A stretch of DNA of 64,000 nt from Methanobacteriota archaeon. GTDB lineage: Archaea; Thermoplasmatota; Thermoplasmata; UBA10834. The notes under the pieces are model-generated. The model searched no databases and had not been told where the DNA came from. It saw nothing but the letters and a program-made list of their open reading frames with translations. The position numbers and the translations under genes were made by a program. The stretch spans positions 243,582 to 307,581 of the forward strand of contig CP070732.1 of assembly GCA_020347565.1 (NCBI GenBank), given 5' to 3'. Positions 24,397 through 61,029 of this stretch are shown here, piece after piece (position 1 is the first letter of the stretch; each line of letters opens with the position of its first letter).

Positions 24397-25863
24397 TTGC
24401 AGGTAGAGGAGCCGGTCGGCAGGCACATCGAAATTCTCTCGAGAAGCGACTTGGATGATATCCACGGCGCCACGATGGAAGTCCTCCGACGATTAGGCGT
24501 CAAGGTGTTGGAGCCGAATGCACTGGAGCTGTTCGATGAGGCCGGAGCGGATGTCGACAGGAAGACGAAGGTCGTCAGAATCCCTGAAGGCCTGGTCAAG
24601 GAGACCGTTCGGAAGGCGCCTTCCGAGTTCAAGATGTATGGGAGGGATCCGAAGTACCAATTGGACTACAGCGGGAACAAAGTGCACTTCGGGGTCGCAG
24701 GCTGCGCGATACGAGTCAAGGATCTGGACGGAAGGATCAGGCCAGGAACCGTGGCAGACGTTGAGAGCATAGCGAGGGTTGCGGACTACCTCGAGAACAT
24801 ACATCACATACTGTTGACCGTCACTCCGTTCGACGTACCCGATGAGGTCTACCATTTGCACTGCATCAATGCGGACTGGAAGAACTCTGTGAAGACGACC
24901 GATGGATTCACTTGGACGGCCAGGAAGGCCCAGGAGACGGTCGATATGGCAGCTATCCTCAGAGGCAGCTACGATGAGGTCGTGAGGAGACCCCCGCTCC
25001 TGGGGTTCATGAATCCTGTGAGCCCCATGCAGCTCTCCAGTGAGCTGACGGAGGGTGCACTCGTGTATGCTAAATACAGGCAGCCGATGGTTGTCGCCCC
25101 GGAAGCGCTCGCAGGGGCAACAGCCCCCTCTACCCTGGCCGGCCTCCTCACTCAGCAGAACGCGGAGGTGCTCGCGGGCATCATGGTGACCCAACTGGCT
25201 AGCTCCGGAACGCCCGTGCTCTACGGTACTGCCTCCACCGTCATGGACATGAGGACGGGGACGGCAGCGATGGGAGGGCCCGAGGTCGGATTGGTCAATA
25301 TAGCTACCGGCCAGCTCGGAAGATACTACAGCCTGCCCAGAAGAGGTACTGGAGGCGTCACTGATTCGAAGCTGGTGGACGCGCAGGCCGGCGCCGAGAC
25401 AGCTCTGTCGATGTTGATGGCGGCGCTCTCCGGCATGAACTTCATCTATGAGGCATGCGGAGGACTCGATGGTACGCTCACATTCTCTTATGAGAAGCTG
25501 GTCGTAGACGATGAGATTGCCGGCATGGTTTCCAGGACGCTCAGAGGGATAGAGGTGAACGAGGAGACTCTGGCGGTTGACGAGATATGCAAGTACGGGT
25601 CTTCGAGCTACCTCGGGTCGCCTCATACCGGAAGGACATTCAGGACGGAGCATTACATGCCAACACTGTTCGACCGCAGACACTGGGAGGCCTGGCTGAA
25701 GGCCGGCGGTAGGGACATCTCCCTGGAGGCCAGGCGAAAAGCCAAATGGATCCTGAAGGAGCATCATGCGGAGCCCGTCGACGGAGCCATCCAAGCTGAG
25801 ATCGATGAATTCATCAGGAAGACGACGAGAGGCTGGGCGGACAGCGCTTCTACCGCTTCCTGA
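24397..25863 (+). CDS. MttB-superfamily (trimethylamine methyltransferase-like, COG5598) protein, non-pyrrolysine member, paralog 1
   Basis: Full-length 488-aa ORF with no internal TAG. N-terminal LSRSDLDDIHGATMEVL and core LAGATAPSTLAGLLTQQNAEVLAGI...GGPEVGL resemble the MttB/MtgB family. TTG start with AGGTG-like SD 8 nt upstream. Confidence 0.8.
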   Translation: MQVEEPVGRHIEILSRSDLDDIHGATMEVLRRLGVKVLEPNALELFDEAGADVDRKTKVVRIPEGLVKETVRKAPSEFKMYGRDPKYQLDYSGNKVHFGVAGCAIRVKDLDGRIRPGTVADVESIARVADYLENIHHILLTVTPFDVPDEVYHLHCINADWKNSVKTTDGFTWTARKAQETVDMAAILRGSYDEVVRRPPLLGFMNPVSPMQLSSELTEGALVYAKYRQPMVVAPEALAGATAPSTLAGLLTQQNAEVLAGIMVTQLASSGTPVLYGTASTVMDMRTGTAAMGGPEVGLVNIATGQLGRYYSLPRRGTGGVTDSKLVDAQAGAETALSMLMAALSGMNFIYEACGGLDGTLTFSYEKLVVDDEIAGMVSRTLRGIEVNEETLAVDEICKYGSSSYLGSPHTGRTFRTEHYMPTLFDRRHWEAWLKAGGRDISLEARRKAKWILKEHHAEPVDGAIQAEIDEFIRKTTRGWADSASTAS

Positions 25864-30915: not shown

Positions 30916-32373
30916 TTGGAAATCAAGGCGCCGAAGGGCGGTCAATTGGAACTCTTATCTCGCGACGACCTGGACAAGATTCACGGCGCCACAGTCGAAA
31001 TCCTTCAGAGATTAGGGATGAAGATCTGGGAGCCAACTGCCTTGAAGCTGTTCAAAGATGCTGGAGCCGACGTCGACGAGAAGACAATGATGGTCCGCAT
31101 CCCAGAGAACCTCCTCAAAGAGACTGTTCGGAAGGCTCCTCAGGAGTTCAAGCTCTATGGGAGGGATCCGGACTATATTCTCAACATGGCCGAAAACAAT
31201 GTCCACATCGGACCATCTGGTCTCGCCGTAAGAGTGCATGACCTCGACGGCAAGATCAGGCCTGGGAAGCTGAAGGACGTCGGAAACCTCGCGAGGCTCA
31301 TCGACGCTCTGGAGAACATCCATATGAATGTCATGAGCGTCACCCCGTCCGACGTCCCGGACGATCTGTATCACCTTCATGGAATCATGGAGGATTGGAG
31401 GAACTCAGTCAAGACGACTGATGGATACAATTGGACCGCAAGGAAGGCCCAAGAGACCATAGACATGGCGTCGATTCTCAGGGGAGGCACAGAGGAACTG
31501 ATGAAGAAGCCGTGCCTTCTTGGTTTCACGAATCCCGTCAGCCCTATGCAGCAATCCAAGGAGCTGATCGAGGGGGCGCTGGTCTACGCGAAGTACAAGC
31601 AGCCGATGATCTACGCTCCTGAAGCACTTGCGGGCGGCACCGCACCCGCGACCCTCGCAGGCCTGCTTGCACAGCAGAACGCTGAGGTGTTATCTGGAAT
31701 CATGATATCCGAGCTCGCGAACCCCGGAGCTCCCGTGTTCTACGGGACGGTCTCGGCGGCGCTGGACATGAAGACGGGAGCGACAGCCCTTGGGGGGCCT
31801 GAAGTCGGACTGCTGAATATCGCGACTGGACAGCTCGGAAGATACTACGGGCTCCCGCGAAGAGGCACGGGCGGCAACTCCGATTCAAAGGCATTGGACG
31901 CTCAGGCAGGGTTGGAGACGGCGACGAACATGCTCATGGCAGGACTCGCAGGGATGAATTTCATCTATGACGCCTGCGGCTCCCTCGAGGGCAGCATAAC
32001 GACGTCCTATGAGAAACTCGTGATTGACAACGAAATCGCCGGTATGGTCACGAGGATCCTTGGCGGCATAGAGGTCACGGAGGAAACGCTCGCGGTTGAC
32101 GAGATCTGCAGAGTCGGGCCGAATGCCAGCTTCCTCGGGACGTCGTTCACGGCGAAGCACTTCAGGAAGGAGCACTTCCTCCCAACGCTGCTTGACCGCA
32201 GGTCACTGGAATCGTGGCTGAAAGCCGGCTCGAAAGACATCACCGCGGTCGCGCGAGAGAAGGCAAAGCAGATACTGAAGGAGCACGAGCCTGTGCCCAT
32301 GGACAAAGGCGTCACAGCAGAGCTAGAAGAATACGTGAAGAAGGCGACAAAGACGAAGGCGACAAAGACATAG
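30916..32373 (+). CDS. MttB-superfamily (COG5598) protein, non-pyrrolysine, paralog 2 (~70% identical to paralog 1)
   Basis: 485 aa with no internal TAG. ELLSRDDLDKIHGATVEIL and LAGGTAPATLAGLLAQQNAEVLSGI...GGPEVGLLNIATGQLGRYYGLPRRGTGG are near-identical to paralog 1. In-frame stop lies 15 nt upstream; TTG start at 30916; GGGAGG SD ~9 nt upstream; TATA gatatataag at 30869-78. Confidence 0.8.
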   Translation: MEIKAPKGGQLELLSRDDLDKIHGATVEILQRLGMKIWEPTALKLFKDAGADVDEKTMMVRIPENLLKETVRKAPQEFKLYGRDPDYILNMAENNVHIGPSGLAVRVHDLDGKIRPGKLKDVGNLARLIDALENIHMNVMSVTPSDVPDDLYHLHGIMEDWRNSVKTTDGYNWTARKAQETIDMASILRGGTEELMKKPCLLGFTNPVSPMQQSKELIEGALVYAKYKQPMIYAPEALAGGTAPATLAGLLAQQNAEVLSGIMISELANPGAPVFYGTVSAALDMKTGATALGGPEVGLLNIATGQLGRYYGLPRRGTGGNSDSKALDAQAGLETATNMLMAGLAGMNFIYDACGSLEGSITTSYEKLVIDNEIAGMVTRILGGIEVTEETLAVDEICRVGPNASFLGTSFTAKHFRKEHFLPTLLDRRSLESWLKAGSKDITAVAREKAKQILKEHEPVPMDKGVTAELEEYVKKATKTKATKT

Positions 32374-33738: not shown

Positions 33739-35190
33739 GTGAAGGGGATTCCGTGCAAACAGATGATCAAGATACTGACCGACGAACAGGTGGAGAAGGT
33801 TCACGAGGCCTCCCTCAAGATACTTGAGGGGACGGGCGTCAGGTTCGATAGCGCAGACGCGAGGCGCCGCCTGATGGACTCTGGCGGGATTGCGCACACG
33901 GACAGGAAGGACGTCATCACTTTCCCCAGAAGCGTGATTGAGGAGGCAATCGGCAAGGTCCCGCGCGAGGTCAGCTACTTCGCGAGGGACCCCGAATGGG
34001 ACATCAGGTACGACGGTGAACACACGTACCCGTACGCTGGAGGCGGCGACCCAAACGTCCTGGACATCGACACTGGGAAGGCGAGGCCCTCAACGTTTGC
34101 TGACGTCGAAGACGCCGCGAGACTCGGTGATGCGCTCGAGAACAACAACTCGGTTTCACATATGGTCATCGCCAACGATGTCCCTCCCTGGATGATAGAG
34201 CTCAGGACCATGGAGGCGGGGATGAAGAACTCGGCGAAGGCCTTGTCCCACCACGCCACACGTGCGGAGACCGTGGATTACATGGTCAAGATATGGTCTT
34301 GCGTTGCTGGCGGCGAGGAGGAGTTCAGGAAGAGGCCTCTGCTCAGCCTGGGCAGCTCCCCGAGCAGTCCGCTGACCTACGCCAGCCACGTGTGCGATGT
34401 CCTGATCAGGAGCGTGGAGCTAGGGGTTCCGTTCTCCGTCATTCCTTGCCCCGTCTCGGGCGGGACCGGCCCGGCGACGCTCGGAGGGTCCCTGGCGCTG
34501 CAGAACGCCGAGACGCTGGCCGGCTTGGTGCTGATGCATGCGGCCGCCCCGCCGCTCCCGACAGTGTATTGCGGCAGGGTCTGCTTCATGGACCCGAGGA
34601 GCGGACGGGACCTATGGGGAGTGCCAGAGGAGGGACTGGTATCGGCAGCCCTCGTCCAGCTCGGCAAGAGATACGATATGGTTTGTGACGCCTGCGGCAC
34701 GGCCTCCGACGTGACGAGATGGGACCTCCAGATCGGGTTCGAGTGCATGATGACTACGCTACTGCCAGTCATGGCCGGGGCCGAGAGCGTTTCCGGCATC
34801 GGCGGCGGATGGGAAGGCGCCTCAAGCCTCGAGATGATGGTCGTCGGCAACGAGGTATACGACGACGTCGCCAGGGTCATGAGGGGCATCGCCCTGGACG
34901 ACGACGTGCTCGGTTTGGATGTAATCGATGGGGTGGGGCACATGGGCACATACCTCACGCAGCCTCACACCGCGAAGTACCTGCGGAAGGGGGAGCTGAG
35001 GATCTCGTCGCTCTGGGACAAGAGGACTTCCGAGAGCGCCTCGAGGGAAGGGTCAAAGCCCTTGATCGAGACCGCGAGGGATGTTGCCAAAAGCGTATTG
35101 AAAGAGCATGAGCCGATGCCCTTGGACAGGGACGTCGAGCAGGAGATTGGCACGATACTGAAAGACGCGCAGAAGGCCCTCGCAAGATAG
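33739..35190 (+). CDS. MttB-superfamily (COG5598) protein, non-pyrrolysine, divergent paralog 3
   Basis: 483 aa with no internal TAG. ILTDEQVEKVHEASLKIL, PATLGGSLALQNAETLAGL; alignable to paralogs 1 and 2 over the full length but much more divergent. GTG start with AGGAGG SD 8 nt upstream; alternative ATG at 33763. Confidence 0.75.
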   Translation: MKGIPCKQMIKILTDEQVEKVHEASLKILEGTGVRFDSADARRRLMDSGGIAHTDRKDVITFPRSVIEEAIGKVPREVSYFARDPEWDIRYDGEHTYPYAGGGDPNVLDIDTGKARPSTFADVEDAARLGDALENNNSVSHMVIANDVPPWMIELRTMEAGMKNSAKALSHHATRAETVDYMVKIWSCVAGGEEEFRKRPLLSLGSSPSSPLTYASHVCDVLIRSVELGVPFSVIPCPVSGGTGPATLGGSLALQNAETLAGLVLMHAAAPPLPTVYCGRVCFMDPRSGRDLWGVPEEGLVSAALVQLGKRYDMVCDACGTASDVTRWDLQIGFECMMTTLLPVMAGAESVSGIGGGWEGASSLEMMVVGNEVYDDVARVMRGIALDDDVLGLDVIDGVGHMGTYLTQPHTAKYLRKGELRISSLWDKRTSESASREGSKPLIETARDVAKSVLKEHEPMPLDRDVEQEIGTILKDAQKALAR

Positions 35191-50040: not shown

Positions 50041-50127
50041 GCCGAGGTAGCTAAGCCCGGTTTAAGGCGGTAGCCTCGAGAGCTACTGGTGCTTGTCACC
50101 ACGGGAGTTCAAATCTCCCCCTCGGCG
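50041..50127 (+). tRNA. tRNA-Ser (anticodon CGA), class II with long variable arm
   Basis: Acceptor GCCGAGG/CCTCGGC; anticodon stem GTAGC/GCTAC with loop CTCGAGA (anticodon CGA); variable arm TGGTG...CACCA; T-arm GGGAG-TTCAAAT-CTCCC; discriminator G followed by genomic CC. TATA catatag is ~35 nt upstream. Confidence 0.7.
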
Positions 50128-53015: not shown

Positions 53016-53744
53016 TCAAACGCTCCTCCTCTGCTTCTTGAAGTAGTCTAGCACTATCTTGCGCTGGCCCTTCCTGAGTATCTCTGAAAGCGTGGACGGC
53101 GATACGTCGAACATCCGGGCGAGTTCGCGGAGGCTTATCCTCTTCGGATAGTCAAAGTAGCCTCTCTCGAACGCAACCTGTGTGATCTTGTCCTGTCGTT
53201 CAGTCAGCGACTCCTTGTCGTCGATCTTCGTGAGCTTGATGAGTTCGGCCTCCACGCTCTTGGACTTCAAGTCGTCGAATATCTCCTTCAGCACCTGCTT
53301 CTCGCTGAGTATGAGCGTCCATTCGACCTTGCCGCCGTCCTTCGATTGAGCTGATATGAGGAAGACATCCGAATCGGTCAGAATCCTGCATATCTCGCAC
53401 CGCGTCGTCGTCACGGCGCTGATCACCTTCCCCCTCTCCGTCGTGGTTGTGTCCATGTCGGCGACCAGCGGGTTGGCCCTCACCGCTTTGAGGACATCCT
53501 CCATCACGTCGGAGGTTGCGGATATCTCGACGAGGTCCTTCACACCCTTCTCGGCATAGGGCACCCTGTCTATGACTCTGATTTCCACAGGGAACTTAGC
53601 CGACACCTCGCTTATCCAGTTCTCAGGCTCTCGGAGCGAGACTATTGCCTCCATCATTTCTGTCGATACCCCTCTCCAGCTATCTTGCGATTGCCGCAAG
53701 TAGTGCAGGGCATACGGCGTATATGTATCTTGACACAGGTCCAT
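53016..53744 (-). CDS. HTH_10 (bacterio-opsin-activator-type) transcriptional regulator
   Basis: C-terminal TERQDKITQVAFERGYFDYPKRISLRELARMFDVSPSTLSEILRKGQRKIV is a Bat-type HTH; an alternative start at the MMEAIV Met pair (~53654) would shorten the N-terminus. Confidence 0.6.
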   Translation of the reverse strand: MDLCQDTYTPYALHYLRQSQDSWRGVSTEMMEAIVSLREPENWISEVSAKFPVEIRVIDRVPYAEKGVKDLVEISATSDVMEDVLKAVRANPLVADMDTTTTERGKVISAVTTTRCEICRILTDSDVFLISAQSKDGGKVEWTLILSEKQVLKEIFDDLKSKSVEAELIKLTKIDDKESLTERQDKITQVAFERGYFDYPKRISLRELARMFDVSPSTLSEILRKGQRKIVLDYFKKQRRSV

Positions 53745-53815
53745 CCATCCCTCAGCGGCATTTTCGCCCTGCCATCCGAGCTTATTATCTATGCCGTCCT
53801 CGTTTGCGATGTGGG

Positions 53816-55129
53816 ATGGATCTAACGGCCCTCAACCAGTCAGCCGCAATGGTCGACACCCCTGAGATGTTCGACGAAGTGCTCTCAGGCGACAACATCA
53901 GGATGAAGTCTTCAAGGTGTGTCTACTGCAAGGGCGCGAAGATGCTGTGTGGAAAGAGCCGGTGCAGCGTTCTAGCCAGGTACATGTCGACCGGCTGGAT
54001 GCGGTCCCAGACCGACAAGCTCTCGTTGGACGGCAACTCCCCCCCGAGCGTCTTCGTTGGCAGGATGGGATATCCAAAGGTCGCTATCGGGCCGATGATA
54101 CCCCCGTATCACGGCGACACATCCCTCCTCGACACGCCGGAGCGGTGGGCCGGCCTGTCAATAGACGACATAATCGACTTCAGATCGAGCCTCGTGCGAG
54201 GGATGCACTGGGCCCGTGTGACGGATGTGGACAGCGGGGACAGACTGGTCTCCAGGACGAGGGAGCTGGCCCTCGCGCAGGTCCCGCCCGATGTGGATGC
54301 GGAGTTCAGGAAGAAGCCCGTGGGCCGGCTGACGGTCGACGACGACGTCCAGCCGTTCGGGCCGTCCGCACCTCTGGAGAGATTCGACATCTCCAACTGT
54401 AGATTCGACAGGAGGCTGGAGAAGGCGTTCCACGATGTGGACCTTCTTGCACGTGATGCGATAGTGTCGCTCTACGACAGCGGCACCCTCGTCTCACAGA
54501 TACAGAGGGCCTTCAGCGTCGGCGCGTTCGGGGTGGGCAAACGGAGGCGCTTCGTGCCTACAAGATGGAGCATCACGGCGGTGGACAGCCAGCTCGGACT
54601 GCACATGCTCCAGACGACGAAGACCAGGCCGATCATAGACGAGTTCAGGGTTTACGAGACCGTCAGCCTGGACAACAGATGGGCTGTGCTCATGATGCCG
54701 ACATCCTGGAGGTACGAGCTGATCGAGGCATGGTATCCCAAGACCGTTTGGAACCCGTACAACGACAGGATCGCCATCATGTCTGACCACGAGTTCTATG
54801 ACGGCAGGAAGACGTATGCTAGCATAGGCGGGTGCTACTACGCCGCCAGGCTCGCGGTCAACGAGCTGCTCACGAGGGAACGCCGCCAGGCGGGGGTCTG
54901 CATAATGCGCGAGGCGCACCCGGGCTACATACTCCCCGTCGGGGTCTGGAACGTGAGGGAGAACGTGAGAACCGCCCTGAGCAACAGGCCGAAGAGGTTC
55001 TCCACGCTCACGGATGCACTCACCCATGTGTCGACGATGATGGACATCCCGGTGTCGAGGTGGATCCGGAGCAGTGCTGTGCTGAAGGATGCCCTCTATC
55101 AGAGACGCATAGACGAGTTCGTCGGGTGA
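53816..55129 (+). CDS. hypothetical protein, possibly archaeal Nre-family (DUF650/DUF651) DNA repair protein
   Basis: N-terminal Cys cluster CVYCKGAKMLCGKSRC and overall size recall NreA/NreB; assignment is from memory of family features, not a computed match. Confidence 0.35.
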   Translation: MDLTALNQSAAMVDTPEMFDEVLSGDNIRMKSSRCVYCKGAKMLCGKSRCSVLARYMSTGWMRSQTDKLSLDGNSPPSVFVGRMGYPKVAIGPMIPPYHGDTSLLDTPERWAGLSIDDIIDFRSSLVRGMHWARVTDVDSGDRLVSRTRELALAQVPPDVDAEFRKKPVGRLTVDDDVQPFGPSAPLERFDISNCRFDRRLEKAFHDVDLLARDAIVSLYDSGTLVSQIQRAFSVGAFGVGKRRRFVPTRWSITAVDSQLGLHMLQTTKTRPIIDEFRVYETVSLDNRWAVLMMPTSWRYELIEAWYPKTVWNPYNDRIAIMSDHEFYDGRKTYASIGGCYYAARLAVNELLTRERRQAGVCIMREAHPGYILPVGVWNVRENVRTALSNRPKRFSTLTDALTHVSTMMDIPVSRWIRSSAVLKDALYQRRIDEFVG

Positions 55130-55932
55130 TCCAGTTGGAGGTTCGACACGTCGAGTGTTCCGTCGCGGCCCCCCCGTCCAGGCTTCCCGGGCTGGATCGC
55201 GCGGTCAACCCGTATCGGGGCTGCGCCCACTCATGCGCCTACTGCTACGCCCAGGACGTCACGAGGTTCGAGACCGACAGGCCGTGGGGAGATGTGGTGG
55301 AGGCGAAGGTCAACATCGCGCGGAGGCTGAAGCACGAGCTATCGCGGGACGCGAAGGGGGTCTACGGCATAGGGACGGTGACGGACCCGTATCAGCCACT
55401 GGAGGAGAAGCTGGAGCTGACGAGAAGCTGTCTCGCGCTCCTGAGACGGTTCGGTGCGCGCGCGAGCGTCCTCACTAAGTCGGACCTCGTACTGCGCGAC
55501 ATCGACCTGATGCGCGATTGGCCTGGTGTCGAGGTCGGGATGAGCATCGCATGTGCGGACGACGCAACGGCCGCCGTCGTGGAGCCGCATGCGCCGCCGC
55601 CGACCAACCGGTTCGGCGCGCTGGCGCGGCTGTCGGCCGCTGGTGTCGACGTCTACCTGATGGCTGCTCCGATCATCCCTTCGCTGTCCGGCTCGCGGGA
55701 CCAGCTCGAGAGTCTCGTGGATGCGGCGCACGGATCCGGCGTGAGGCGTATCATATGGGACATGTGGAGCCCGAAGCCCATCGCGAGCCTCCGCCTCCGA
55801 GAGGCGCTCGATGGCGTCGTCGCCGAGCTCGCCGAGCTCGCCGGGTCGTCGCGCGGAGCCCGTTCGTCTGCCGAAGCCGTCCTCGCAAGCGTGTGCTCCG
55901 ACAGGGGTATCCAGCTCGTCTCGGCGTTCTGA
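55126..55932 (+). CDS. radical SAM protein, SplB-like (spore-photoproduct-lyase / 'DNA repair photolyase' COG1533 family)
   Basis: [10 protein letters not shown] CxxxCxxC cluster motif near the N-terminus. GTG start overlaps the upstream stop (GTGA). Confidence 0.6.
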
Positions 55933-56020: not shown

Positions 56021-57688
56021 ATGTTGGGAAACCAGCCGATAATCGTACTGAAAGAAGGCACAGAATCGACCCGCGGCCGCTCCGCGCATGCGAACAACAT
56101 AATGGCGGCCAGGGCAGTTGCTGACGCCGTCAGGAGCACCTTGGGCCCCAAGGGCATGGACAAGATGCTCGTGGACAGCATGGGCGACATCGTGATGACG
56201 AATGATGGTGCAACCATACTGAAGGAGCTGGATATTGAACACCCTGCGGCCAAGATGATAGTGGAGATATCGAAGACGCAGGACAACGAGTGCGGGGACG
56301 GCACGACCTCCGCGGTTGTGATCGCCGGTGAGCTGCTGAAGAAGTCGGAGGCGCTGATCGAACAGAACGTGCATCCGACGGTCATATCAAACGGCTTCAG
56401 GCTGGCTTCGCAGGAGGCGGTGAAGGTCCTCAAGAGCATAGGCGTAGAAGTGTCGCCGACGGACAGGAAGACGCTCAAGCTCGTCGCCAAGACGGCGATG
56501 ACTGGAAAGAGCGTCGACGGGGACAAGGACACCCTTGCCAGGGTAGCGGTCGACGCCGTGACCTCCGTGGCCGAGGAGACGGGCGGGAAGTACGCAGCAG
56601 ACATCGACAACATCCAGGTCGAGAAGAAGCACGGCGGCTCCGTCGCGGACACAGAGATGATCAAGGGTCTCGTTCTCGACAAGGAGCGCGTGCACCCTCG
56701 GATGCCGACGTCGGTTAAGGGCGCGAAAATCGCGCTCATAGACTCCGCGCTGGAGATCAAGAAGACCGAGGTCGAGGCCAAGATCCAGATACGCGACCCG
56801 ACGCAGATGCAGCGCTTCCTGGACGAGGAGGAGAAGACGCTCCAGGAGATGGTCGAGAAGGTCCGGAGGTCGGGTGCGAACGTGGTCATGTGCGAGAAGG
56901 GCATAGACGACCTCGCCCAGCACTACCTCGCGAAGACCGGACTCTACGCCGTCCGTCGCGTCAAGCGCTCGGACATGGAGAAGCTCGCGAAGGCCACAGG
57001 TGGCAAGATCGTCACCAACCTCGATGACCTGGGCGCATCAGAGCTCGGGAAGGCACAGACGGTTGAGGAGGTGAAGATCGGCGACTCCGACATGACCTTC
57101 GTGACCGGATGCAGGAACCCGAAGGCCGTGTCCGTCCTCATAAGAGGCGGGACGGAGCATGTCGTGGATGAGGCGGAGCGCGCGCTTCATGACGCCCTAA
57201 AGGTCGTATCGGTGTCCATCGAGGACGGCGTGGCCGTCGCCGGCGGAGGCGCTCCGGAGATCGAGCTGGCAATCAAGCTCCGCGACTACGGCCAGAGCGT
57301 GGGCGGCAGGGAGCAGCTGGCGATCGAGGCATTCGCCGAGGCCCTCGAGGTCATCCCGTGGACGCTCGCCGAGAACGCAGGCATGGACGCGATCAACGTG
57401 CTTATCGAGCTCAAGACCTCGCACGCCAAGAAGGCCGGTCAGGCGTTCGGCGTCGACGTGATGGCCAACAAGGTCTCCGACATGATGAAGGCTCAGGTTA
57501 TCGAGCCGCTCAGGGTGAAGAGGCAGGCCATCGAATCGGCGACCGAGGTCGCGTCGATGGTGCTGAGGATCGATGATGTCATCGCGTCCAAGAAGATGAG
57601 CCCGTCCGATATGCCGCAGGGGCCTCCGGGAGGGGGCGGCATGGGTGGCATGGGTGGTATGGGTGGCATGCCACCTGGCATGATGTAA
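56021..57688 (+). CDS. ths: thermosome subunit (group II chaperonin)
   Basis: [42 protein letters not shown]-terminal [17 protein letters not shown] tail. Start set at ATG 56021. Confidence 0.9.
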
Positions 57689-57704
57689 ACGCGAACCAAA
57701 CCGA

Positions 57705-57738
57705 CGAGGGCTCTGGGCCCTCGCCATCTTGCTTTTCC
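57705..57738 (+). terminator. hairpin + T-rich tract downstream of the thermosome gene
   Basis: cgagggc-tctg-ggccctcg stem-loop then cttgcttttcc, 17 nt after the stop. Confidence 0.45.
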
Positions 57739-58085
57739 ACGCCAACGCCTCGGGATAGCCTGATTCACGCTCCGATGGTCGGCAGGGATGTGCCGACACA
57801 TGTGGATCGTCCGCCTGAGTCCGAAGCTCAGGAGGAAACACATGTCTTGCCGACAAACGGGCATTCACCGGAAGCCCAACACGTATGCTGGCCTACTCGG
57901 CCTTGCGCCGAGGAATGCACGTTTTGGCTGCTGTTTTGCGTGGCGAATACACTGCTCCGACAACGCCTGACGCGCCCGTAGACAGGTCTTGGCGGCGCGT
58001 CCCTTCCGTGTCTGGCCAACCTGTCACAGGCCCTGTTTGGCGTCGGCCCGGAGTTCGAGATTCGCCCCTCGGAAATGGCTGATCC

Positions 58086-58500
58086 TTGTATCATTTCATC
58101 GATACATTCCGTGAATTCAACCTCATAGCTATCATTGGAACGCTTTTAAATTTAATCTGGTCATTCTTAACGGAGATAGATATACTGTTCCCGGACTCTG
58201 CCGACGGGTGTCTTCCGGAGTGGACGCATATTTATTTCGGCCGCCCTATTATTAATCCTCCGTCATGAGATTTTGGGTCTGGCTATGCCCACCGAGGGTG
58301 TCTAAATGCGGGGAAGATAGTCGCTTCACAAAGGGCTGGTTCAGGCCATTCCCCTGCTCATCTGTAGCTGCATGATCCTCCTCATGATGCCATGCTATGG
58401 CATGTCATGGCGTCTGCCGTTGTCGGACAGATGTTTAGTTTAGATGTATATTTGTAATGCTGGTATCGGTATATACAAATATATTGGAATTGAATACTAA
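58086..58500. other. AT-rich (~35-40% GC versus ~60% background) non-coding island with multiple inverted repeats
   Basis: For example atgccat-gct-atggcat (58387-58403) and ttgcccct-ttca-ggggcaa (~58515). Lies upstream of the recombinase gene. No long ORF. Confidence 0.5.
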
Positions 58501-58840
58501 AATGGCAGGCGCCCCTTGCCCCTTTCAGGGGCAACCGGCCGGATCCCGCTTCGAGAGCGGTGATTTTCGCTCTGCAGGCTCGTAGTAATTGAATGCTTTC
58601 GGGGTCGAGTGCTACAAAATAGCACGCTGTCTTGAGCCATACAGGCGTTTCCGCGGCGTATTTCGCCCCTCCCAAGCGAAAACGGCGACAAATCGGGCAT
58701 TAGTTGACGATTTCGATGGGGTCTCTAGCGTCTCGGAGATGGTCGAGGGCGGATTCTAGGCGAAATGCGACATTTTTAAATAGGCACAATCGGATTAGCT
58801 GTCGGACGATTGTCCGCGCGCAAAGGGATGGGAACGTACC

Positions 58841-59491
58841 ATGCGAAAGTATCTCAAGGAGGGCGAGCTACGGCAACTGCTCGAGGCGCCGAGGCGGATG
58901 AGGGACCGTCTCATCATCAAACTGCTGTACGAGACGGGTATGCGGGTCGGCGAACTGTCGACCTTGACAATCGGTGACGTGGATCTCGACTCAGGCGAGA
59001 TCACAATACAGCACGCGAAGAGGCACAGTGAAGGGCGCAAGGTCCCGATCGTCAACTCCTGGACACGCACAATGCTCCGGGATTACATAGGCACGCGCAA
59101 GAACCACAGGGACCCGCTGTTCGTCTCGAACAAGAGAGGGCCGCTTTCGAGGCGCCAGATAGAGCGACTCATCCACAATTACGGTACCTCAGTAGGCCTG
59201 GAAAGAGACAAGAGCCACCCCCACGTCCTCCGTCACACGCATGCGGTCCACGCTCTCAAGTCTGGCATCGACCTCAGAACGCTGCAGCAGAATCTCGGGC
59301 ACTCCAGCATAGAGGTGACGGCCATCTACCTCACCATGGACATCGATGACAGGAAGGAAGAATACTCCAAGCATCGACTGCCGGGAATGGACGCGGCTGC
59401 GGGAGAGGGAGACGGGCAAGCGGAGCAGGATACAGAGCGCACAACGGGCGCTAGTCACTCGAACTCCTATGTGCTCTCGAGTGATGTTTAG
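58841..59491 (+). CDS. tyrosine recombinase/integrase, catalytic domain only (no N-terminal core-binding domain)
   Basis: R...HxxR...Y catalytic layout: LLYETGMRVGEL, HVLRHTHAVHALKSG, GHSSIEVTAIYL. Only 216 aa. Confidence 0.7.
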   Translation: MRKYLKEGELRQLLEAPRRMRDRLIIKLLYETGMRVGELSTLTIGDVDLDSGEITIQHAKRHSEGRKVPIVNSWTRTMLRDYIGTRKNHRDPLFVSNKRGPLSRRQIERLIHNYGTSVGLERDKSHPHVLRHTHAVHALKSGIDLRTLQQNLGHSSIEVTAIYLTMDIDDRKEEYSKHRLPGMDAAAGEGDGQAEQDTERTTGASHSNSYVLSSDV

Positions 59492-59640
59492 GTAAACGCT
59501 AAACTGAATGATGTTGAATCGGTACATCCCATAATTTCTTAGCTTGATGCTATTCAATCGGTCGCGGCGGCCGGGAAAGAAGCTCTGTCGCCGTTCCCTC
59601 GTCAACATATAATACACGTCTCGGGATTCTTACCTACGAT

Positions 59641-61029
59641 ATGCCTGAGGATTGGACGGAGAGGTACAGGCCAGCATCGCTGTCCGAAGTGGTGGGCAAC
59701 GACAGAGCCATCGGGACTATGAGACGCTGGGCCGAGTCCTGGAAGAAGGGGGCTCCGAAGAAGAAGGCATTGGTGCTGAAAGGCGAGCCAGGTACTGGAA
59801 AGACAAGTGCCGCTCTGGCCCTCGCGAACGACTTCGGATGGGACGTCATCGAGATGAACGCGTCGGATCACAGGAACGCCGATTCCATACGCAGGGTTGC
59901 TGGCCTCGGAGCGGTCAGCGAGACGTTCTCCAACGCGGGAGAGTTCCTGTCCACTTCAGAAGGCAAGCGCAAGCTGATCGTTTTGGATGAGGCGGACAAC
60001 CTGTTCGGACGAGAGGACCATGGAGGAGCGAAGGCGATCAGCCAGACGATCAAGGAGACCAACCAGCCCGTCATACTGATCGTCAACGACTACTACGCCC
60101 TAACCCGCAAGGCCTCAGCCATCAAGACGCTCGCAGTGGGTGTGAAGTTCGCGAGGCACCGCGACGGCACGGTTCTGGAGGTGCTGCGGGGGATCTGCGA
60201 AGCCGAAGGGTTGACGGTGGACGCTGGACTGCTCGCCGCAATCGTCAAGAACGCCTCTGGCGACCTGAGAGGGGCCATCAACGACCTCCAGATGCTCGTG
60301 GAGGGGCGAAAGACGGTCGATGTCGAGGGCGGAGACGCCCTTGGCAAGCGGAACCAGGGAGTCGAGCTGGACGCTGCGCTCGAGGCCATGTACGGCGCGC
60401 GCACCGCGAGGGAGGCGAGGGACGCCACGAACTCGCTCGACAAGACCCCTGATGAGCTGATCATGTGGATAGAGGAGAGCATACCCAGCGAGTTCTCGAA
60501 CCGCGCAGACAGGGCAGCGGCGTTCGACGCCCTCTCGCGCTCGGACGTCTACCTCAGACGGACCAGGCGCCTCCAACACTACGGCCTCTGGGCGTACGCG
60601 AAAGAGATGATGACGAGCGGCGTGGCCCTTGCCAGGAGCGGCCCGAGACGCCGCTCCCCACCGAGGTACGGCTTCCCGAGCTACCTCATCATGATGTCGC
60701 GCTCCAAATCCGTCCGGTCCTCGAGGGCGGCTCTGTGTCGCAAGCTCTCGCCTGTGCTGCACTCGTCGTCACGCGAGATCGCCGTTTCCGTGCTTCCTTA
60801 TCTGTCGGCCATGGCCCGCAACGACAGCGAGCTACTGGCCCATCTGGGCGCGGAGGCCGAGTTCGACGAGGGCGACGTCGCCTACCTCCTCGGGACGGAC
60901 CCCGCATCCGATGCCGTGGCGGATACGATGGACGTGATCCGAAGGATCAGGTCCGGCGAAATACGGCGGGAAGCCGCTGCCGAGGCGGGCTCAGATGCCC
61001 GGCGAGGCACTCGCCTGTCGGACTTCTGA
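59641..61029 (+). CDS. rfcL: replication factor C large subunit
   Basis: MPEDWTERYRP, GEPGTGKTS, LIVLDEADNL; archaeal RfcL length (462 aa). Confidence 0.85.
   Translation: MPEDWTERYRPASLSEVVGNDRAIGTMRRWAESWKKGAPKKKALVLKGEPGTGKTSAALALANDFGWDVIEMNASDHRNADSIRRVAGLGAVSETFSNAGEFLSTSEGKRKLIVLDEADNLFGREDHGGAKAISQTIKETNQPVILIVNDYYALTRKASAIKTLAVGVKFARHRDGTVLEVLRGICEAEGLTVDAGLLAAIVKNASGDLRGAINDLQMLVEGRKTVDVEGGDALGKRNQGVELDAALEAMYGARTAREARDATNSLDKTPDELIMWIEESIPSEFSNRADRAAAFDALSRSDVYLRRTRRLQHYGLWAYAKEMMTSGVALARSGPRRRSPPRYGFPSYLIMMSRSKSVRSSRAALCRKLSPVLHSSSREIAVSVLPYLSAMARNDSELLAHLGAEAEFDEGDVAYLLGTDPASDAVADTMDVIRRIRSGEIRREAAAEAGSDARRGTRLSDF

What the first reader, a model, noticed from the sequence alone, without database searches (positions are those of the whole stretch)
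57689..59640. Catalytic-domain-only tyrosine recombinase next to a 1.1-kb non-coding, partly AT-rich, hairpin-rich island wedged between thermosome and rfcL
Seen in sequence: after a hairpin/T-tract terminator for the thermosome gene there is ~1150 nt without a credible ORF. Its central ~400 nt are ~35-40% GC in a ~60% GC genome and carry several perfect inverted repeats. Then comes a 216-aa integrase comprising only the catalytic R-HxxR-Y domain, and then ~150 nt before rfcL. Established knowledge: archaeal SSV-type integration splits the int gene into int(N) and int(C) at the attachment site, and Xer-like or integron-like recombinases act on hairpin or IR sites. Inference, with four possibilities: (a) a decayed or minimal integrated element whose int(C) remains; (b) a site-specific inversion or excision switch acting on the inverted repeats; (c) an XerA-like recombinase with an unusually short form; (d) an unrecognised structured ncRNA in the island. 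No tRNA is adjacent, which argues against classical tRNA-targeted integration.
Basis: partly seen in the sequence, partly recalled or inferred. Interest (0 to 1): 0.6.

Follow-up and report, generated by a model that had tools for sequence, protein, structure and literature searches.

The report
Short XerA-like recombinase with conserved upstream site
A whole lineage of Thermoplasmata archaea carries a highly conserved tyrosine recombinase with no DNA-clamping N-terminal domain, always preceded by the same about 455-bp palindrome-rich non-coding stretch, and this pair is most likely a self-contained chromosome-resolution (Xer/dif-like) module, not a dead virus integrase, a DNA switch or an RNA gene.

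Summary
After the thermosome gene come 1152 nt without a gene, a 216-aa catalytic-domain-only tyrosine recombinase (58841-59491), and rfcL.

The recombinase is not a fragment. More than 120 Thermoplasmata loci carry the same 213-224-aa protein at 72-87% identity (better conserved than rfcL). All catalytic residues are intact and synteny is fixed: int, rfcL, tyw1, aCPSF1. Its closest relatives are archaeal XerA catalytic domains.

The "island" has two parts. The distal 700 nt (57689-58385) is lineage-specific filler; relatives hold ordinary genes in that slot. The proximal 455 nt (58386-58840) is a module conserved in sequence blocks and in spacing (a few nt in most loci). It holds seven palindromes, a BRE/TATA promoter and a 14-5-14 imperfect palindrome (P5, 58680-58712) shaped like a recombinase core site.

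I found no Rfam hit, no covariation, no orientation polymorphism, no att repeats and no viral relatives.

Best reading (about 0.4): a Xer/dif-type module with a clamp-less XerA derivative. Whether a canonical XerA coexists in these genomes is unresolved. I rate it a new variant of a known kind, of moderate interest.

The parts
57702..57726 (+). GC-rich hairpin followed by a T-rich tail, a terminator-like end of the thermosome gene. It is context, not part of the module.
   Evidence: Sequence and scan. The adjoining thermosome 3' end and stop codon (to about 57690-57701) aligns in relatives.
57689..58385 (.). Lineage-specific non-coding filler in a variable gene slot, probably what remains after gene loss.
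   Evidence: No nucleotide match in 40 relatives. In relatives this slot is 0.7 to more than 4.5 kb and holds an M20 peptidase, a wHTH protein, VIT1, a subtilase or a clostripain. The only match is a marginal tblastn hit to an M20 C-terminus (E 0.007).
57956..57973 (-). Window-specific inverted copy of the P2 element, 16 of 18 positions complementary to 58410-58427.
   Evidence: pair I2. It was not found in relatives and falls below the PWM threshold. Its significance is unknown.
58390..58410 (.). P1: weak copy of the palindrome CCGTGNTA-N5-TANCACGG. It marks the distal edge of the conserved module.
   Evidence: PWM hits at about -455 in many loci and alignment A1.
58411..58429 (.). P2: palindrome CGTCYG-N7-CGGACG, about 430 nt upstream of int.
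   Evidence: Present at -419 to -440 in more than 90 loci. The whole hairpin is reverse-complemented in L005, L047 and L017.
58430..58510 (.). AT-rich spacer (29.6% GC). Its length is conserved but its sequence is not.
58516..58534 (.). P3: GC palindrome TTGCCCC(C)-loop-(G)GGGGCAA, followed by CGGATC and three T-runs spaced 21 and 11 nt apart.
   Evidence: The loop is found in both orientations among lineages (GTA/TAC, TTATA/TATAA).
58607..58627 (.). P4: palindrome (C)CGTGNTA-N5-TANCACG(G), a second copy of the P1 motif.
   Evidence: At about -234 in nearly all loci and retained in the deep branch L036/L037. The third position of each half-site varies without compensation.
58680..58712 (+). 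P5: imperfect palindrome AAACGGCRACAAAT-N5-ATWWGKYGNCGNTT (14-5-14). It is the candidate recombinase core (dif-like) site.
   Evidence: Single copy in the 64-kb window; 0 of 100 shuffles gave a match. Always on the + strand at -159 to -174. The left arm is nearly invariant, the right arm is variable and the centre is variable. Covariation is below shuffles. It is kept in a degenerate form when the rest of the module is lost (L115) and in the deep branch. A P5-like palindrome lies upstream of a 55%-identical relative in an unrelated genomic context (L128).
58748..58788 (+). P6 inverted repeat (GCATTTT-N7-AAAATGC in most loci), then AAATGCGACA, a TATA-like TTTTTAAATA and GGCACA. This is the presumed int promoter with an overlapping operator.
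   Evidence: Nearly invariant in A1 and always on the + strand at about -93. The same GCGACATTTTATATA...AGGCACA is present in L128. Promoter function is inferred from archaeal BRE/TATA knowledge and was not tested.
58801..58816 (+). P7: palindrome GTCGGAC-N4-GTCCG in the presumed 5' leader. It shares the 8-mer TGTCGGAC with P2.
   Evidence: A homologous element is present in the 65%-identical relative L130.
58823..58832 (+). Conserved AAGGGATGGG motif 9-18 nt before the start codon. It does not match the anti-Shine-Dalgarno sequence, and its role is unknown.
   Evidence: Invariant GGGATGGG in A1.
58841..59491 (+). Catalytic-domain-only tyrosine recombinase of 216 aa. Catalytic residues are R35, K60, H128-x-x-R131, H154 and Y163. 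It ends in a disordered acidic tail and a conserved C-terminal motif (59450-59488).
   Evidence: Pfam PF00589, residues 4-165. NCBIfam XerA model positions 94-263 of 263, 179.7 bits against a cut-off of 220. PDB XerA 4a8e and 5hxy are the best matches. AF2 model pLDDT is 79, with residues 187-213 disordered. Invariant columns are listed.
59641..61029 (+). rfcL (RFC large subunit), the invariant downstream neighbour with its own short upstream gap.
   Evidence: Pfam AAA, Rad17 and RFC lid domains. Synteny holds in 40 genome loci.

Best explanation
The locus is a conserved, vertically inherited two-part unit.

**Part 1: the recombinase (shown).** It is an active tyrosine recombinase derived from the archaeal XerA family. 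It has no core-binding N-terminal domain. It carries a disordered acidic tail that ends in a conserved peptide.

**Part 2: the upstream region (shown).** Directly upstream lies a cis-acting DNA region of about 455 bp made of protein-binding palindromes at largely fixed spacing. Its most persistent element is P5, a single-copy 14-5-14 imperfect palindrome about 75 bp upstream of the recombinase promoter.

**Proposed mechanism (inferred).**
- P5 is the crossover site.
- Two recombinase monomers bind its arms.
- The flanking palindromes (P1/P4, P2/P7, P3, the phased T-tracts and the promoter-overlapping repeat) bind accessory proteins or extra recombinase subunits. These would compensate for the missing clamp domain, bend the DNA, make the reaction selective for two directly repeated copies, and autoregulate int.
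- Only one site exists per chromosome, so the natural substrate would be a chromosome dimer. That makes this a Xer/dif-type resolution module with the site next to the gene.

The distal 700 nt of the "island" is unrelated filler in a variable gene slot.
For: **The recombinase is real and functional.**
- More than 265 homologues were found; the 120 listed are 74-100% identical and nearly all 204-241 aa long.
- 40 genome loci and 80 metagenome loci were recovered. Synteny with rfcL, tyw1 and aCPSF1 holds in the 40 genome loci and in L115, the only metagenome locus checked.
- Identity is 72-87% for int against 43-77% for rfcL.
- The catalytic residues are invariant.
- The best family match is XerA, covering the catalytic half only. 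The best sequence and fold matches are T. acidophilum and P. abyssi XerA.
- The AF2 model shows one domain plus a disordered tail.
- No core-binding-domain peptide is encoded in any frame of the window or of the related loci.

**The module is a DNA-level element.**
- Motifs and spacing are conserved in more than 100 loci.
- There is no Rfam hit and no covariation.
- Half-site positions vary without compensation.
- The hairpin loops of P2 and P3 occur in both orientations.

**P5 is tied to int.**
- It is unique in the window.
- It always has the same strand and nearly the same distance.
- It survives, in degenerate form, when P2-P4 are replaced (L115).
- It is kept in the 72% branch.
- A P5-like palindrome and the identical promoter motif accompany a 55%-identical short recombinase in a different genomic neighbourhood (L128).

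**Design matches known core sites.**
- P. abyssi dif is ATTGGATATAA-TCGGCC-TTATATCTAAA (PMC2958812). The window P5, read as 11-6-11, is ACGGCGACAAA-TCGGGC-ATTAGTTGACG.
- The Tn4430 IRS core has 14-bp arms and a 4-bp spacer (PMC2847244).

**Precedent.**
- xerA/dif modules exist in some archaea (PMC5357621).
- In haloarchaea dif lies upstream of the xerA operon, and in T. kodakarensis dif sits in a large intergenic region (PMC11840125).
- Lineage-specific simple recombinases have been suggested to compensate for Xer function (PMC8138268).

**No mobile-element signature.** The neighbouring variable genes are ordinary, and there are no viral hits.
Against: - No experiment or read-level data shows recombination at P5.
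- P5 could equally be a transcription-factor operator.
- P5 does not keep the TAA-N6-8-TTA feature called the most conserved in archaeal dif (PMC11840125). Its symmetry gives a 5-nt, not a 6-nt, centre.
- I could not establish whether these genomes also carry a canonical two-domain XerA (one search was uninformative). If they do, the dimer-resolution role is less likely.
- Two relatives, at 55% (L043) and 65% (L130) identity, lack a clear P5.
- The wider clade of short recombinases includes members on mobile elements.
- The sequence shared between the P5 arm and the promoter motif is only a 6-mer, and the half-site PWM finds only the two P5 arms.
- How a clamp-less recombinase would bind and synapse DNA is unexplained.
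Confidence: 0.4

Rival explanations
1. The module is only a promoter and operator region. The palindromes bind transcription factors, or the recombinase acting as its own repressor, and control int. The real recombination target of the enzyme lies elsewhere in the chromosome or on mobile elements.
For: A BRE/TATA-like promoter lies inside the module, and an inverted repeat overlaps it. P1 and P4 are repeated copies of one dimer-type operator. P5 sits about 100 bp upstream of the presumed transcription start, a possible activator position. Relatives L043 and L130 lack a clear P5.
Against: Seven palindromes at near-constant spacing over 455 bp is far more than an ordinary archaeal promoter needs. 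P5 has 14-bp arms of unequal conservation and a variable centre, like a recombinase core site. No other candidate site is known. Recombinase genes that sit next to their own site are common (PMC5357621, PMC2847244).
Confidence: 0.25
2. It is a domesticated integrase acting as an integration platform, integron-like or a hot spot. The fixed int and its attachment region capture or lose genes just upstream, which would explain the variable gene content between the thermosome gene and the module.
For: The gap between the thermosome gene and the module varies from 0.7 to more than 4.5 kb with different genes in different genomes. The wider short-recombinase clade contains members in mobile-element-like contexts and one next to a tRNA fragment. 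In L115 the homology break falls just left of P5. The window has an extra inverted P2-like copy inside the variable part.
Against: The variable genes come from a small recurring set (M20 peptidase, wHTH protein), consistent with ancestral genes being lost. No repeated att-like sites bound them. The gene has no viral relatives, and no exact match to the site pattern was found in viral contigs. Integron-integrase models score far below their cut-offs.
Confidence: 0.1
3. It is a replication origin or chromosome-architecture element: an AT-rich unwinding stretch flanked by repeated palindromes next to a replication gene. The recombinase would be only a neighbour.
For: A length-conserved AT-rich 80 nt lies between repeated palindromes P1 and P4, followed by phased T-tracts. 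Neighbours include rfcL, a DnaG-like Toprim protein and Nre. Domain boundaries colocalize with dif in several euryarchaea, and in T. kodakarensis dif lies in a large intergenic region (PMC11840125).
Against: No orc1/cdc6 lies within 35 kb. The palindromes do not resemble known ORB elements (my own knowledge). The AT-rich part and P2-P3 are missing in the deep branch and in L115, while int, P5 and the promoter stay. No skew inflection is visible, though the window is too short to judge.
Confidence: 0.07
4. It is an unrecognised non-coding RNA, for example a small transcript starting at the GC hairpin P3 and ending at the T-runs, possibly assisting the recombinase.
For: A TATA-like GCTAAAAT/GGTATAAT lies about 15 nt before P3, and T-runs occur on the + strand after it. 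One precedent pairs a tyrosine-recombinase-like protein with an adjacent sRNA (SGI1 MpsA and sgm-sRNA, PMC9299015).
Against: No Rfam hit even at E <= 10. The consensus fold has a covariation term of -0.18. The palindromes show no covariation above shuffles. Loop flips and uncompensated half-site changes fit DNA sites better.
Confidence: 0.05
5. It is a phase-variation invertase of the FimB/FimE type that flips a promoter-bearing segment between inverted repeats.
For: The clamp-less architecture of about 200 aa is the same as in FimB/FimE, whose models align end to end. P2 and P7 share the half-sites CGGAC/GTCCG and bracket the promoter.
Against: All loci with enough upstream DNA, roughly 100, have the same orientation of P5 and the promoter. 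Scores against the invertase models are 64-66 bits against cut-offs of 221-222.
Confidence: 0.03

Closest known systems
Archaeal XerA/dif chromosome-dimer resolution system (P. abyssi, T. acidophilum; xerA/dif modules in Sulfolobales and haloarchaea)
   Same: The catalytic domain is the best sequence, family and fold match. The gene is chromosomal, vertically inherited and single at this locus. An adjacent single-copy imperfect palindrome has AT-rich inner arms and a GC-rich centre. The site is embedded in a large intergenic region.
   Different: The about 100-aa core-binding domain is absent. The score falls below the XerA family cut-off (179.7 against 220). The site is 14-5-14 rather than 11-6-11 and lacks TAA...TTA. 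It is accompanied by about 420 bp of further conserved palindromes. The protein has an acidic tail with a conserved C-terminal peptide.
XerS/difSL and XerH/difH single-recombinase systems of bacteria
   Same: One recombinase acts with an atypical site. For XerS/difSL the site is genetically linked to the gene (PMC5357621, PMC2958812).
   Different: Those enzymes are full two-domain proteins of 350-360 aa (as seen for the XerS family model and the XerH chains). XerS/difSL depends on FtsK, which archaea lack (PMC2958812).
FimB/FimE tyrosine-type DNA invertases
   Same: The domain architecture is the same: about 200 aa with the catalytic domain starting within the first 10 residues (model alignment). 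From my own knowledge, they depend on accessory DNA-bending proteins and on sites next to the recombinase genes.
   Different: Sequence similarity is weak (E 1e-17 to 1e-18). No invertible segment or orientation polymorphism was found here.
Tn4430 TnpI / internal resolution site, and by analogy Tn3 res and cer/psi accessory sequences
   Same: The core has 14-bp inverted arms with a short spacer. Further conserved motifs lie beside it and could serve as accessory sites (PMC2847244).
   Different: That system sits on a transposon and its recombinase is full length. The accessory motifs there clearly share 9 bp with the core, whereas here only a 6-mer is shared.
SGI1 MpsA/MpsB mobilisation module
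   Same: A tyrosine-recombinase-like catalytic protein comes without its own core-binding domain (a separate protein, MpsB, carries a core-binding-like domain), together with a cis site (oriT) in the module and an sRNA encoded between the gene and oriT (PMC9299015).
   Different: That is a bacterial mobile element with relaxase function. No MpsB-like core-binding-domain gene is near int here.

Membership tests
Tyrosine recombinase superfamily (Pfam PF00589) | Catalytic R-K-H-R-H/W-Y residues within the conserved catalytic fold | tested here: met
   PF00589 E 9e-40. R35, K60, H128, R131, H154 and Y163 are invariant in 27 family members and in 67 sequences that include XerAs. The AF2 model (pLDDT 79) matches XerA 5hxy with TM 0.69-0.71.
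Archaeal XerA (NCBIfam NF040815 equivalog) | Whole-protein score at or above the curated cut-off (220 bits) | tested here: not met
   179.7 bits. Only model positions 94-263 of 263 are matched.
Archaeal XerA (NCBIfam NF040815 equivalog) | Two-domain architecture: N-terminal core-binding domain plus catalytic domain forming a C-shaped clamp | tested here: not met
   The catalytic domain starts at residue 4. Upstream frames are closed. An HMM built from 110 XerA N-termini finds nothing in the window or in the related loci. The short form is conserved in all relatives.
Archaeal XerA (NCBIfam NF040815 equivalog) | Cognate 28-bp dif: 11-bp imperfect inverted repeats, 6-bp spacer, TAA-N6-8-TTA | tested here: inconclusive
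   P5 is a unique imperfect palindrome next to the gene with a dif-like layout, and its spacer TCGGGC compares with TCGGCC in P. abyssi. Its symmetry is 14-5-14, however, and TAA...TTA is not kept (PMC2958812, PMC11840125).
Archaeal XerA (NCBIfam NF040815 equivalog) | Sole Xer-type recombinase of the genome, with its site in the replication terminus | not testable with these tools
   Only 64 kb of the genome and windows of at most about 13 kb from relatives were available. The search with the T. acidophilum XerA catalytic domain returned only Thermoplasmatales-like proteins in its top 120.
FimB/FimE-type DNA invertases (NF007370/NF007371) | Family score above cut-off (221-222 bits) | tested here: not met
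   64-65.5 bits.
FimB/FimE-type DNA invertases (NF007370/NF007371) | A segment flanked by inverted repeats that is found in both orientations | tested here: not met
   P5 and the promoter have the same order and strand in every locus with enough upstream DNA, roughly 100 loci.
SSV-type 'suicidal' integrase fragment int(C) | The att site lies inside the int ORF, so integration splits the gene into int(N) and int(C) at the borders of an integrated element | tested here: not met
   The gene has a conserved start codon, promoter and full catalytic domain in all loci. No int(N)-like peptide was found. No flanking direct repeats beyond chance were found. The neighbours are core genes.
Integron integrase / integron platform | IntI family membership and a cassette array bounded by attC sites next to attI | tested here: not met
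   Integron models score 53-79 bits against cut-offs of 265-435. No repeated att-like elements occur in the variable regions. Cassette structure was not examined exhaustively.
Any Rfam RNA family | Covariance-model match | tested here: not met
   No match at gathering score in the window. The only hit at E <= 10 in 57600-59700 is a 15-bit chance hit.
Archaeal oriC | ORB repeats flanking an AT-rich unwinding element, usually next to orc1/cdc6 | tested here: inconclusive
   An AT-rich 80 nt lies between repeated palindromes. No orc1/cdc6 lies within 23-64 kb of the window, and the distal elements are dispensable in some lineages.

The most novel reading that the evidence does not exclude
In an order-level Thermoplasmata lineage the canonical two-domain XerA may have been replaced by a clamp-less, catalytic-domain-only enzyme. 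This enzyme would resolve chromosome dimers at a site next to its own gene. It would rely on a 455-bp array of accessory palindromes, and possibly on a partner docked through its conserved C-terminal peptide, for DNA recognition, synapsis and directionality. That would be a natural minimal tyrosine recombinase working without the C-shaped clamp.
Probability: 0.2. Interest if true: 0.7.

Novelty: new variant of a known kind. Interest (0 to 1): 0.5.

Why it matters
Tyrosine recombinases are taught as two-domain clamps. A housekeeping enzyme that has worked without the clamp domain across a whole archaeal lineage would show another way to build a recombination synapse, using accessory DNA and proteins in its place.

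It is better conserved than the clamp-loader gene next to it, which argues for an important cellular role. That would also offer a very small natural recombinase with a defined candidate site for engineering.

It gives a concrete, testable candidate for how these uncultured Thermoplasmata resolve chromosome dimers. Archaea lack FtsK, and how resolution is made directional in them is unclear.

For annotation, it shows that this gene should not be read as a prophage remnant. It also shows that 455 bp of "intergenic" DNA here is a conserved functional element.

Tried and rejected
- **Upstream extension or frameshifted N-terminus.** All three frames upstream of the ATG are closed. An HMM of XerA N-terminal domains finds nothing.
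- **Known RNA.** Rfam gave nothing at gathering or E-value thresholds.
- **New structured RNA.** RNAalifold and pair counting show no covariation. My first P5 register was off by one and was redone.
- **att direct repeats flanking 57.7-59.6 kb.** Only 10-14-nt chance-level matches were found.
- **Viral or plasmid origin.** No relatives of int and no P5-like site were found in IMG/VR.
- **Inversion.** 33 genome loci and about 70 metagenome loci are all collinear.
- **Pseudogene in the distal 700 nt.** The only signal is a marginal M20 peptidase hit at E 0.007.
- **Coexisting full-length XerA.**
  - The search with the T. acidophilum XerA catalytic domain was saturated by Thermoplasmatales sequences, and none came from the genomes of interest.
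  - Cluster look-ups carried no useful names.
  - The closest full-length relatives proved to be bacterial or phage proteins.
  - I ran no further search on this because the odds were poor.
- **First AlphaFold run.** A shallow alignment gave pLDDT 50 and was discarded. The second run, with XerAs added, gave pLDDT 79.
- **Shared half-site between P5 and the promoter.** A PWM scan supports only the two P5 arms, so this idea stays tentative.
- **Origin of replication.** No orc1/cdc6 was found nearby, and skew over 64 kb is uninformative.
- **T. acidophilum dif2 sequence.** The source paper is not held and the supplement is not held.
Full report
**1. What is in the window**

The thermosome gene (56021-57688, Pfam Cpn60_TCP1, E 1e-187) is followed by a GC-rich hairpin with a T-rich tail at 57702-57726. 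Then come 1152 nt (57689-58840) in which no ORF has a family match.

A 216-aa ORF follows at 58841-59491. Its Pfam Phage_integrase match starts at residue 4 and ends at 165 (E 9e-40). After a further 149 nt comes rfcL at 59641-61029.

All three frames upstream of the ATG are closed by stop codons. The only tRNA in the 64 kb is tRNA-Ser at 50041.

The AT-rich centre is less extreme than reported. GC is 44.5% over 58080-58510, and 100-nt minima reach 33-36%. The window mean is 60.3%.

**2. The recombinase is a conserved native short form, not a fragment**

A search of the large protein collection found more than 265 relatives. The 120 listed are 74-100% identical and nearly all 204-241 aa long.

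Forty loci from species-representative Thermoplasmata genomes and eighty from metagenomes encode it. In the 40 genome loci the order is int, rfcL, a Tyw1-type radical-SAM gene, then a convergent aCPSF1 gene. L115, the one metagenome locus checked for neighbours, has the same order.

| Protein | Identity to the window protein in the 40 genome loci |
|---|---|
| int | 72-87% |
| rfcL | 43-77% |
| thermosome | 67-88% |
| aCPSF1 | 78-95% |

The protein is thus as constrained as core informational genes.

R35, K60, H128, R131, H154 and Y163 are invariant, both within the family and when aligned with bona fide XerAs.

The best curated family is archaeal XerA (NF040815, E 8e-53). The match covers only model positions 94-263 and scores 179.7 bits against a cut-off of 220. 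The best solved relatives are P. abyssi and T. acidophilum XerA, over their catalytic domains only, at about 38% identity.

An AlphaFold model built with XerAs in the alignment (pLDDT 79) shows one catalytic domain (residues 1-180). Residues 187-213 are disordered. Its best Foldseek hits are XerA 5hxy and 4a8e.

The tail is a variable acidic linker ending in a conserved motif (S/N-H-T/S-x-S-F/Y-V-L/I-S-x-D-V). This looks like a docking peptide, but its partner is unknown.

An HMM built from 110 XerA N-terminal domains detects bacterial core-binding domains in control loci. It finds nothing in any frame of the window or of the related loci. So the missing domain is neither decayed upstream nor encoded nearby.

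**3. The "island" is two different things**

Nucleotide comparison with relatives shows that homology extends about 160-170 nt upstream of the start codon in nearly all loci. It reappears at about -390 to -455. Alignment resolves a module of about 455 nt (58386-58840), described in section 4.

Upstream of the module nothing aligns. The distance to the thermosome gene ranges from 0.7 kb (this window) to more than 4.5 kb. That slot holds ordinary genes in relatives: an M20 peptidase, a winged-helix protein, VIT1, a subtilase or a clostripain.

The window's own 700 nt (57689-58385) has no detectable homology apart from a marginal M20 fragment (E 0.007). I read it as filler left by gene loss in a variable slot.

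**4. Anatomy of the module (window coordinates)**

| Element | Coordinates | Description |
|---|---|---|
| P1 | 58390-58410 | Copy of CCGTGNTA-N5-TANCACGG |
| P2 | 58411-58429 | CGTCYG-N7-CGGACG |
| AT-rich spacer | 58430-58510 | Length conserved, sequence not |
| P3 | 58516-58534 | TTGCCCC-loop-GGGGCAA, then CGGATC and T-runs spaced 21 and 11 nt apart |
| P4 | 58607-58627 | Second copy of the P1 motif |
| P5 | 58680-58712 | AAACGGCGACAAAT-CGGGC-ATTAGTTGACGATT, a 14-5-14 imperfect palindrome |
| P6 and promoter | 58748-58788 | Inverted repeat overlapping AAATGCGACA, TTTTTAAATA and GGCACA; a BRE/TATA-type promoter by inference |
| P7 | 58801-58816 | GTCGGAC-N4-GTCCG |
| AAGGGATGGG | 58823-58832 | Conserved motif just before the ATG at 58841 |

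The distances of these elements to the ATG agree within a few nt in most of the more than 100 loci examined. A minority clade is shifted by about 10 nt.

P5 is unique in the 64 kb; 0 of 100 shuffles gave a match. P4 is also unique there at two or fewer mismatches.

**5. DNA element or RNA?**

- Rfam finds nothing.
- RNAalifold predicts only the local hairpins, with a covariation term of -0.18 kcal/mol.
- Counting pairs on the six palindromes gives 74.9% pairing with covariation no better than column shuffles (92 of 500 reach it).
- For P5 the observed covariation is lower than in almost all shuffles (498 of 500 reach or exceed it). Its left arm is nearly invariant while the right arm drifts (ATTTG, ATTAG, ATAAG, ATAAT).
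- In P4 the third half-site base varies without compensation.
- The P2 hairpin and the P3 loop occur in both orientations in different lineages.

Together these patterns are expected for protein-binding DNA palindromes, not for an RNA whose stems are under selection.

**6. Which parts go with the recombinase**

- The 72%-identity deep branch (L035-L037) keeps P4 (in L036 and L037), P5 and the promoter, but not P2 or P3.
- In L115, homology with close relatives stops just to the left of P5. Unrelated GC-rich DNA replaces P2-P4, while a degenerate P5, the promoter, P7 and int remain.
- A 55%-identical short recombinase (L128) lies in an AT-rich archaeal genome with different neighbours: DNA ligase, serpins and an RPA-like gene.
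  - It is preceded by an 850-nt non-coding gap.
  - The gap contains a P5-like palindrome (GTCACAAAATA-GGA-TATTATGTGAC).
  - It also contains the same promoter motif, GCGACATTTTATATA...AGGCACA.
- A 65% relative (L130) keeps the TATA and a P7 homologue but has only a degenerate P5.
- Another 55% relative (L043) has none of these elements.

So P5, the promoter and int form an old unit, and the distal palindromes are a later elaboration in this lineage.

**7.

- **(a) Remnant int(C).** Excluded by the conservation and intact catalytic residues, the conserved start and promoter, the core-gene neighbourhood and the lack of viral relatives.
- **(b) Inversion or excision switch.** P5 and the promoter are on the same strand and in the same order in every locus with enough upstream DNA. 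No second P5 exists in cis.
  - The window does carry one extra inverted P2-like copy at 57956-57973.
  - This copy is not seen in relatives.
- **(d) ncRNA.** See section 5.
- **(c) Short XerA-like recombinase.** Supported.

**8. Most likely mechanism**

The shown facts are these:
- An active XerA-derived catalytic domain without a clamp domain.
- A unique adjacent imperfect palindrome with the proportions of a tyrosine-recombinase core site.
- Further conserved palindromes at near-fixed spacing.
- A promoter overlapped by an inverted repeat.
- No second site in cis.
- No mobile-element context.

From these I infer that P5 is the crossover site. Because the chromosome has one copy, the substrate would be two copies brought together in a chromosome dimer. 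This is a Xer/dif-type module with the site beside the gene.

Three lines of precedent support this:
- Linked sites are described for some archaeal xerA/dif pairs and for XerS/difSL (PMC5357621, PMC2958812).
- In haloarchaea a dif-like site lies upstream of the xerA operon (PMC11840125).
- In T. kodakarensis dif sits in a 1.9-kb intergenic region with its own architectural function (PMC11840125).

The layout of P5 can be set beside known core sites:

| Site | Left arm | Centre | Right arm |
|---|---|---|---|
| P. abyssi dif (PMC2958812) | ATTGGATATAA | TCGGCC | TTATATCTAAA |
| Window P5, read as 11-6-11 | ACGGCGACAAA | TCGGGC | ATTAGTTGACG |

The Tn4430 IRS core, with 14-bp arms and a 4-bp spacer (PMC2847244), is also similar.

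By analogy with the TnpI/IRS accessory motifs, the extra palindromes and T-tracts would supply binding sites for accessory proteins or additional recombinase subunits. From my own knowledge, cer/psi and the IHF/Lrp dependence of the equally clamp-less FimB/FimE point the same way. Such sites would replace the missing clamp, bend the DNA and impose resolution selectivity, and the promoter-overlapping repeat would give autoregulation.

These steps are inference. I put about 0.4 on the full statement. I put more than 0.9 on "genuine conserved clamp-less XerA-family recombinase" and about 0.75 on "DNA-level cis element".

**9. Main uncertainties**

- I could not find out whether these genomes also have a canonical XerA. 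The one search aimed at this was saturated by Thermoplasmatales sequences, and the other routes gave no usable taxonomy.
- P5 lacks the TAA-N6-8-TTA signature of archaeal dif (PMC11840125) and could be an operator.
- A rough neighbour-joining tree places the family inside a wider clade of short (166-265 aa) recombinases.
  - Some sit in mobile-element-like contexts or next to a tRNA fragment.
  - Domestication from a mobile element, and a role in the gene turnover seen just upstream, therefore cannot be excluded.
- No orc1/cdc6 lies within 35 kb, which lowers but does not remove the origin hypothesis.

**10. Novelty and score**

Clamp-less tyrosine recombinases are known (FimB/FimE), and gene-linked xer/dif modules are known. 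Two full-text searches found no description of this arrangement:
- a lineage-wide, vertically inherited, clamp-less XerA derivative;
- more conserved than rfcL;
- with a 455-bp conserved multi-palindrome region.

I class it as a new variant of a known kind and score interest at 0.5. It would rise to about 0.7 if this enzyme proves to be the sole Xer of these archaea.

Noticed in passing
L029:1-3300 versus L029:4400-10651: One relative (MFD00709.bin.2.183) carries a second, inverted copy of the whole unit (module, int, rfcL, tyw1), head to head with the intact one and about 1.4 kb away. The module-int part is 87% identical at nucleotide level and the rest 73%. The second int is broken into frameshifted pieces.
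   Followed up: partly
P2 (window 58411-58429) and P3 (58516-58534), compared across L001-L125: The P2 hairpin and the P3 loop are found reverse-complemented in different lineages (for example CGTCCG-CCGTTGT-CGGACG against CGTCCG-ACAACGG-CGGACG, and loop GTA against TAC). These are repeated small hairpin inversions, as known from chloroplast spacers. They suggest the palindromes extrude or recombine as DNA.
   Followed up: partly
L115:2690-2880: In one metagenome contig, homology with relatives ends just left of P5. Upstream lies unrelated GC-rich DNA with several partial copies of the P5 left arm (GAAAACGGCAAC, GCGCCGACAAATCG, and an inverted ATTGTCGCC). This could be the scar of a rearrangement at the site, or an assembly chimera.
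   Followed up: partly
window 59450-59488 (int residues 204-216): The recombinase ends in a conserved peptide (S/N-H-T/S-x-S-F/Y-V-L/I-S-x-D-V) after a variable acidic, disordered linker. It looks like a docking motif for an unknown partner and does not fit the canonical PIP-box pattern.
   Followed up: no
window 58823-58840: The invariant GGGATGGG just before the int start contains an ATG. In many relatives this opens a 3-4-codon mini-ORF (ATG GGA ACC TAG) that ends at or overlaps the real start. The motif is not complementary to the 16S rRNA 3' end.
   Followed up: no
window 57956-57973: An inverted copy of the P2 element (16 of 18 positions) lies 436 nt upstream of P2, inside the non-conserved filler. 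It was not seen in relatives.
   Followed up: partly
window 24397-25863, 30916-32373, 33739-35190; Rfam hit at 31876-31975: Three MttB-family (trimethylamine methyltransferase-like) genes lie within 11 kb. One carries a PYLIS_3 Rfam match (41.9 bits), although the ORF reads through without an in-frame amber codon, so it is probably a non-pyrrolysine MttB homologue. An oligopeptide ABC transporter lies between them.
   Followed up: no
L128:5150-6000: A 55%-identical short recombinase in an AT-rich archaeal genome (neighbours: DNA ligase, an actin-like protein, two serpins, an RPA-like protein) is also preceded by an 850-nt gene-free stretch. That stretch carries the same promoter motif and two palindromes built from the half-site ATGTC(A/G)C.
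   Followed up: partly
L131:1330-1420; L045; L129: More distant short recombinases of the same clade sit next to a tRNA 3' fragment (GGTTCGAATCCCGG) or inside runs of small ORFs with no family hits. These members are therefore probably integrases of mobile elements.
   Followed up: no
window 53645-55932: The Nre gene (53645-55129) and the longest reading of the next radical-SAM ORF (54832-55932) overlap by about 300 nt. The alignments to relatives begin between residues 16 and 179 of that ORF, about residue 100 in many loci, so its true start is probably well downstream.
   Followed up: no
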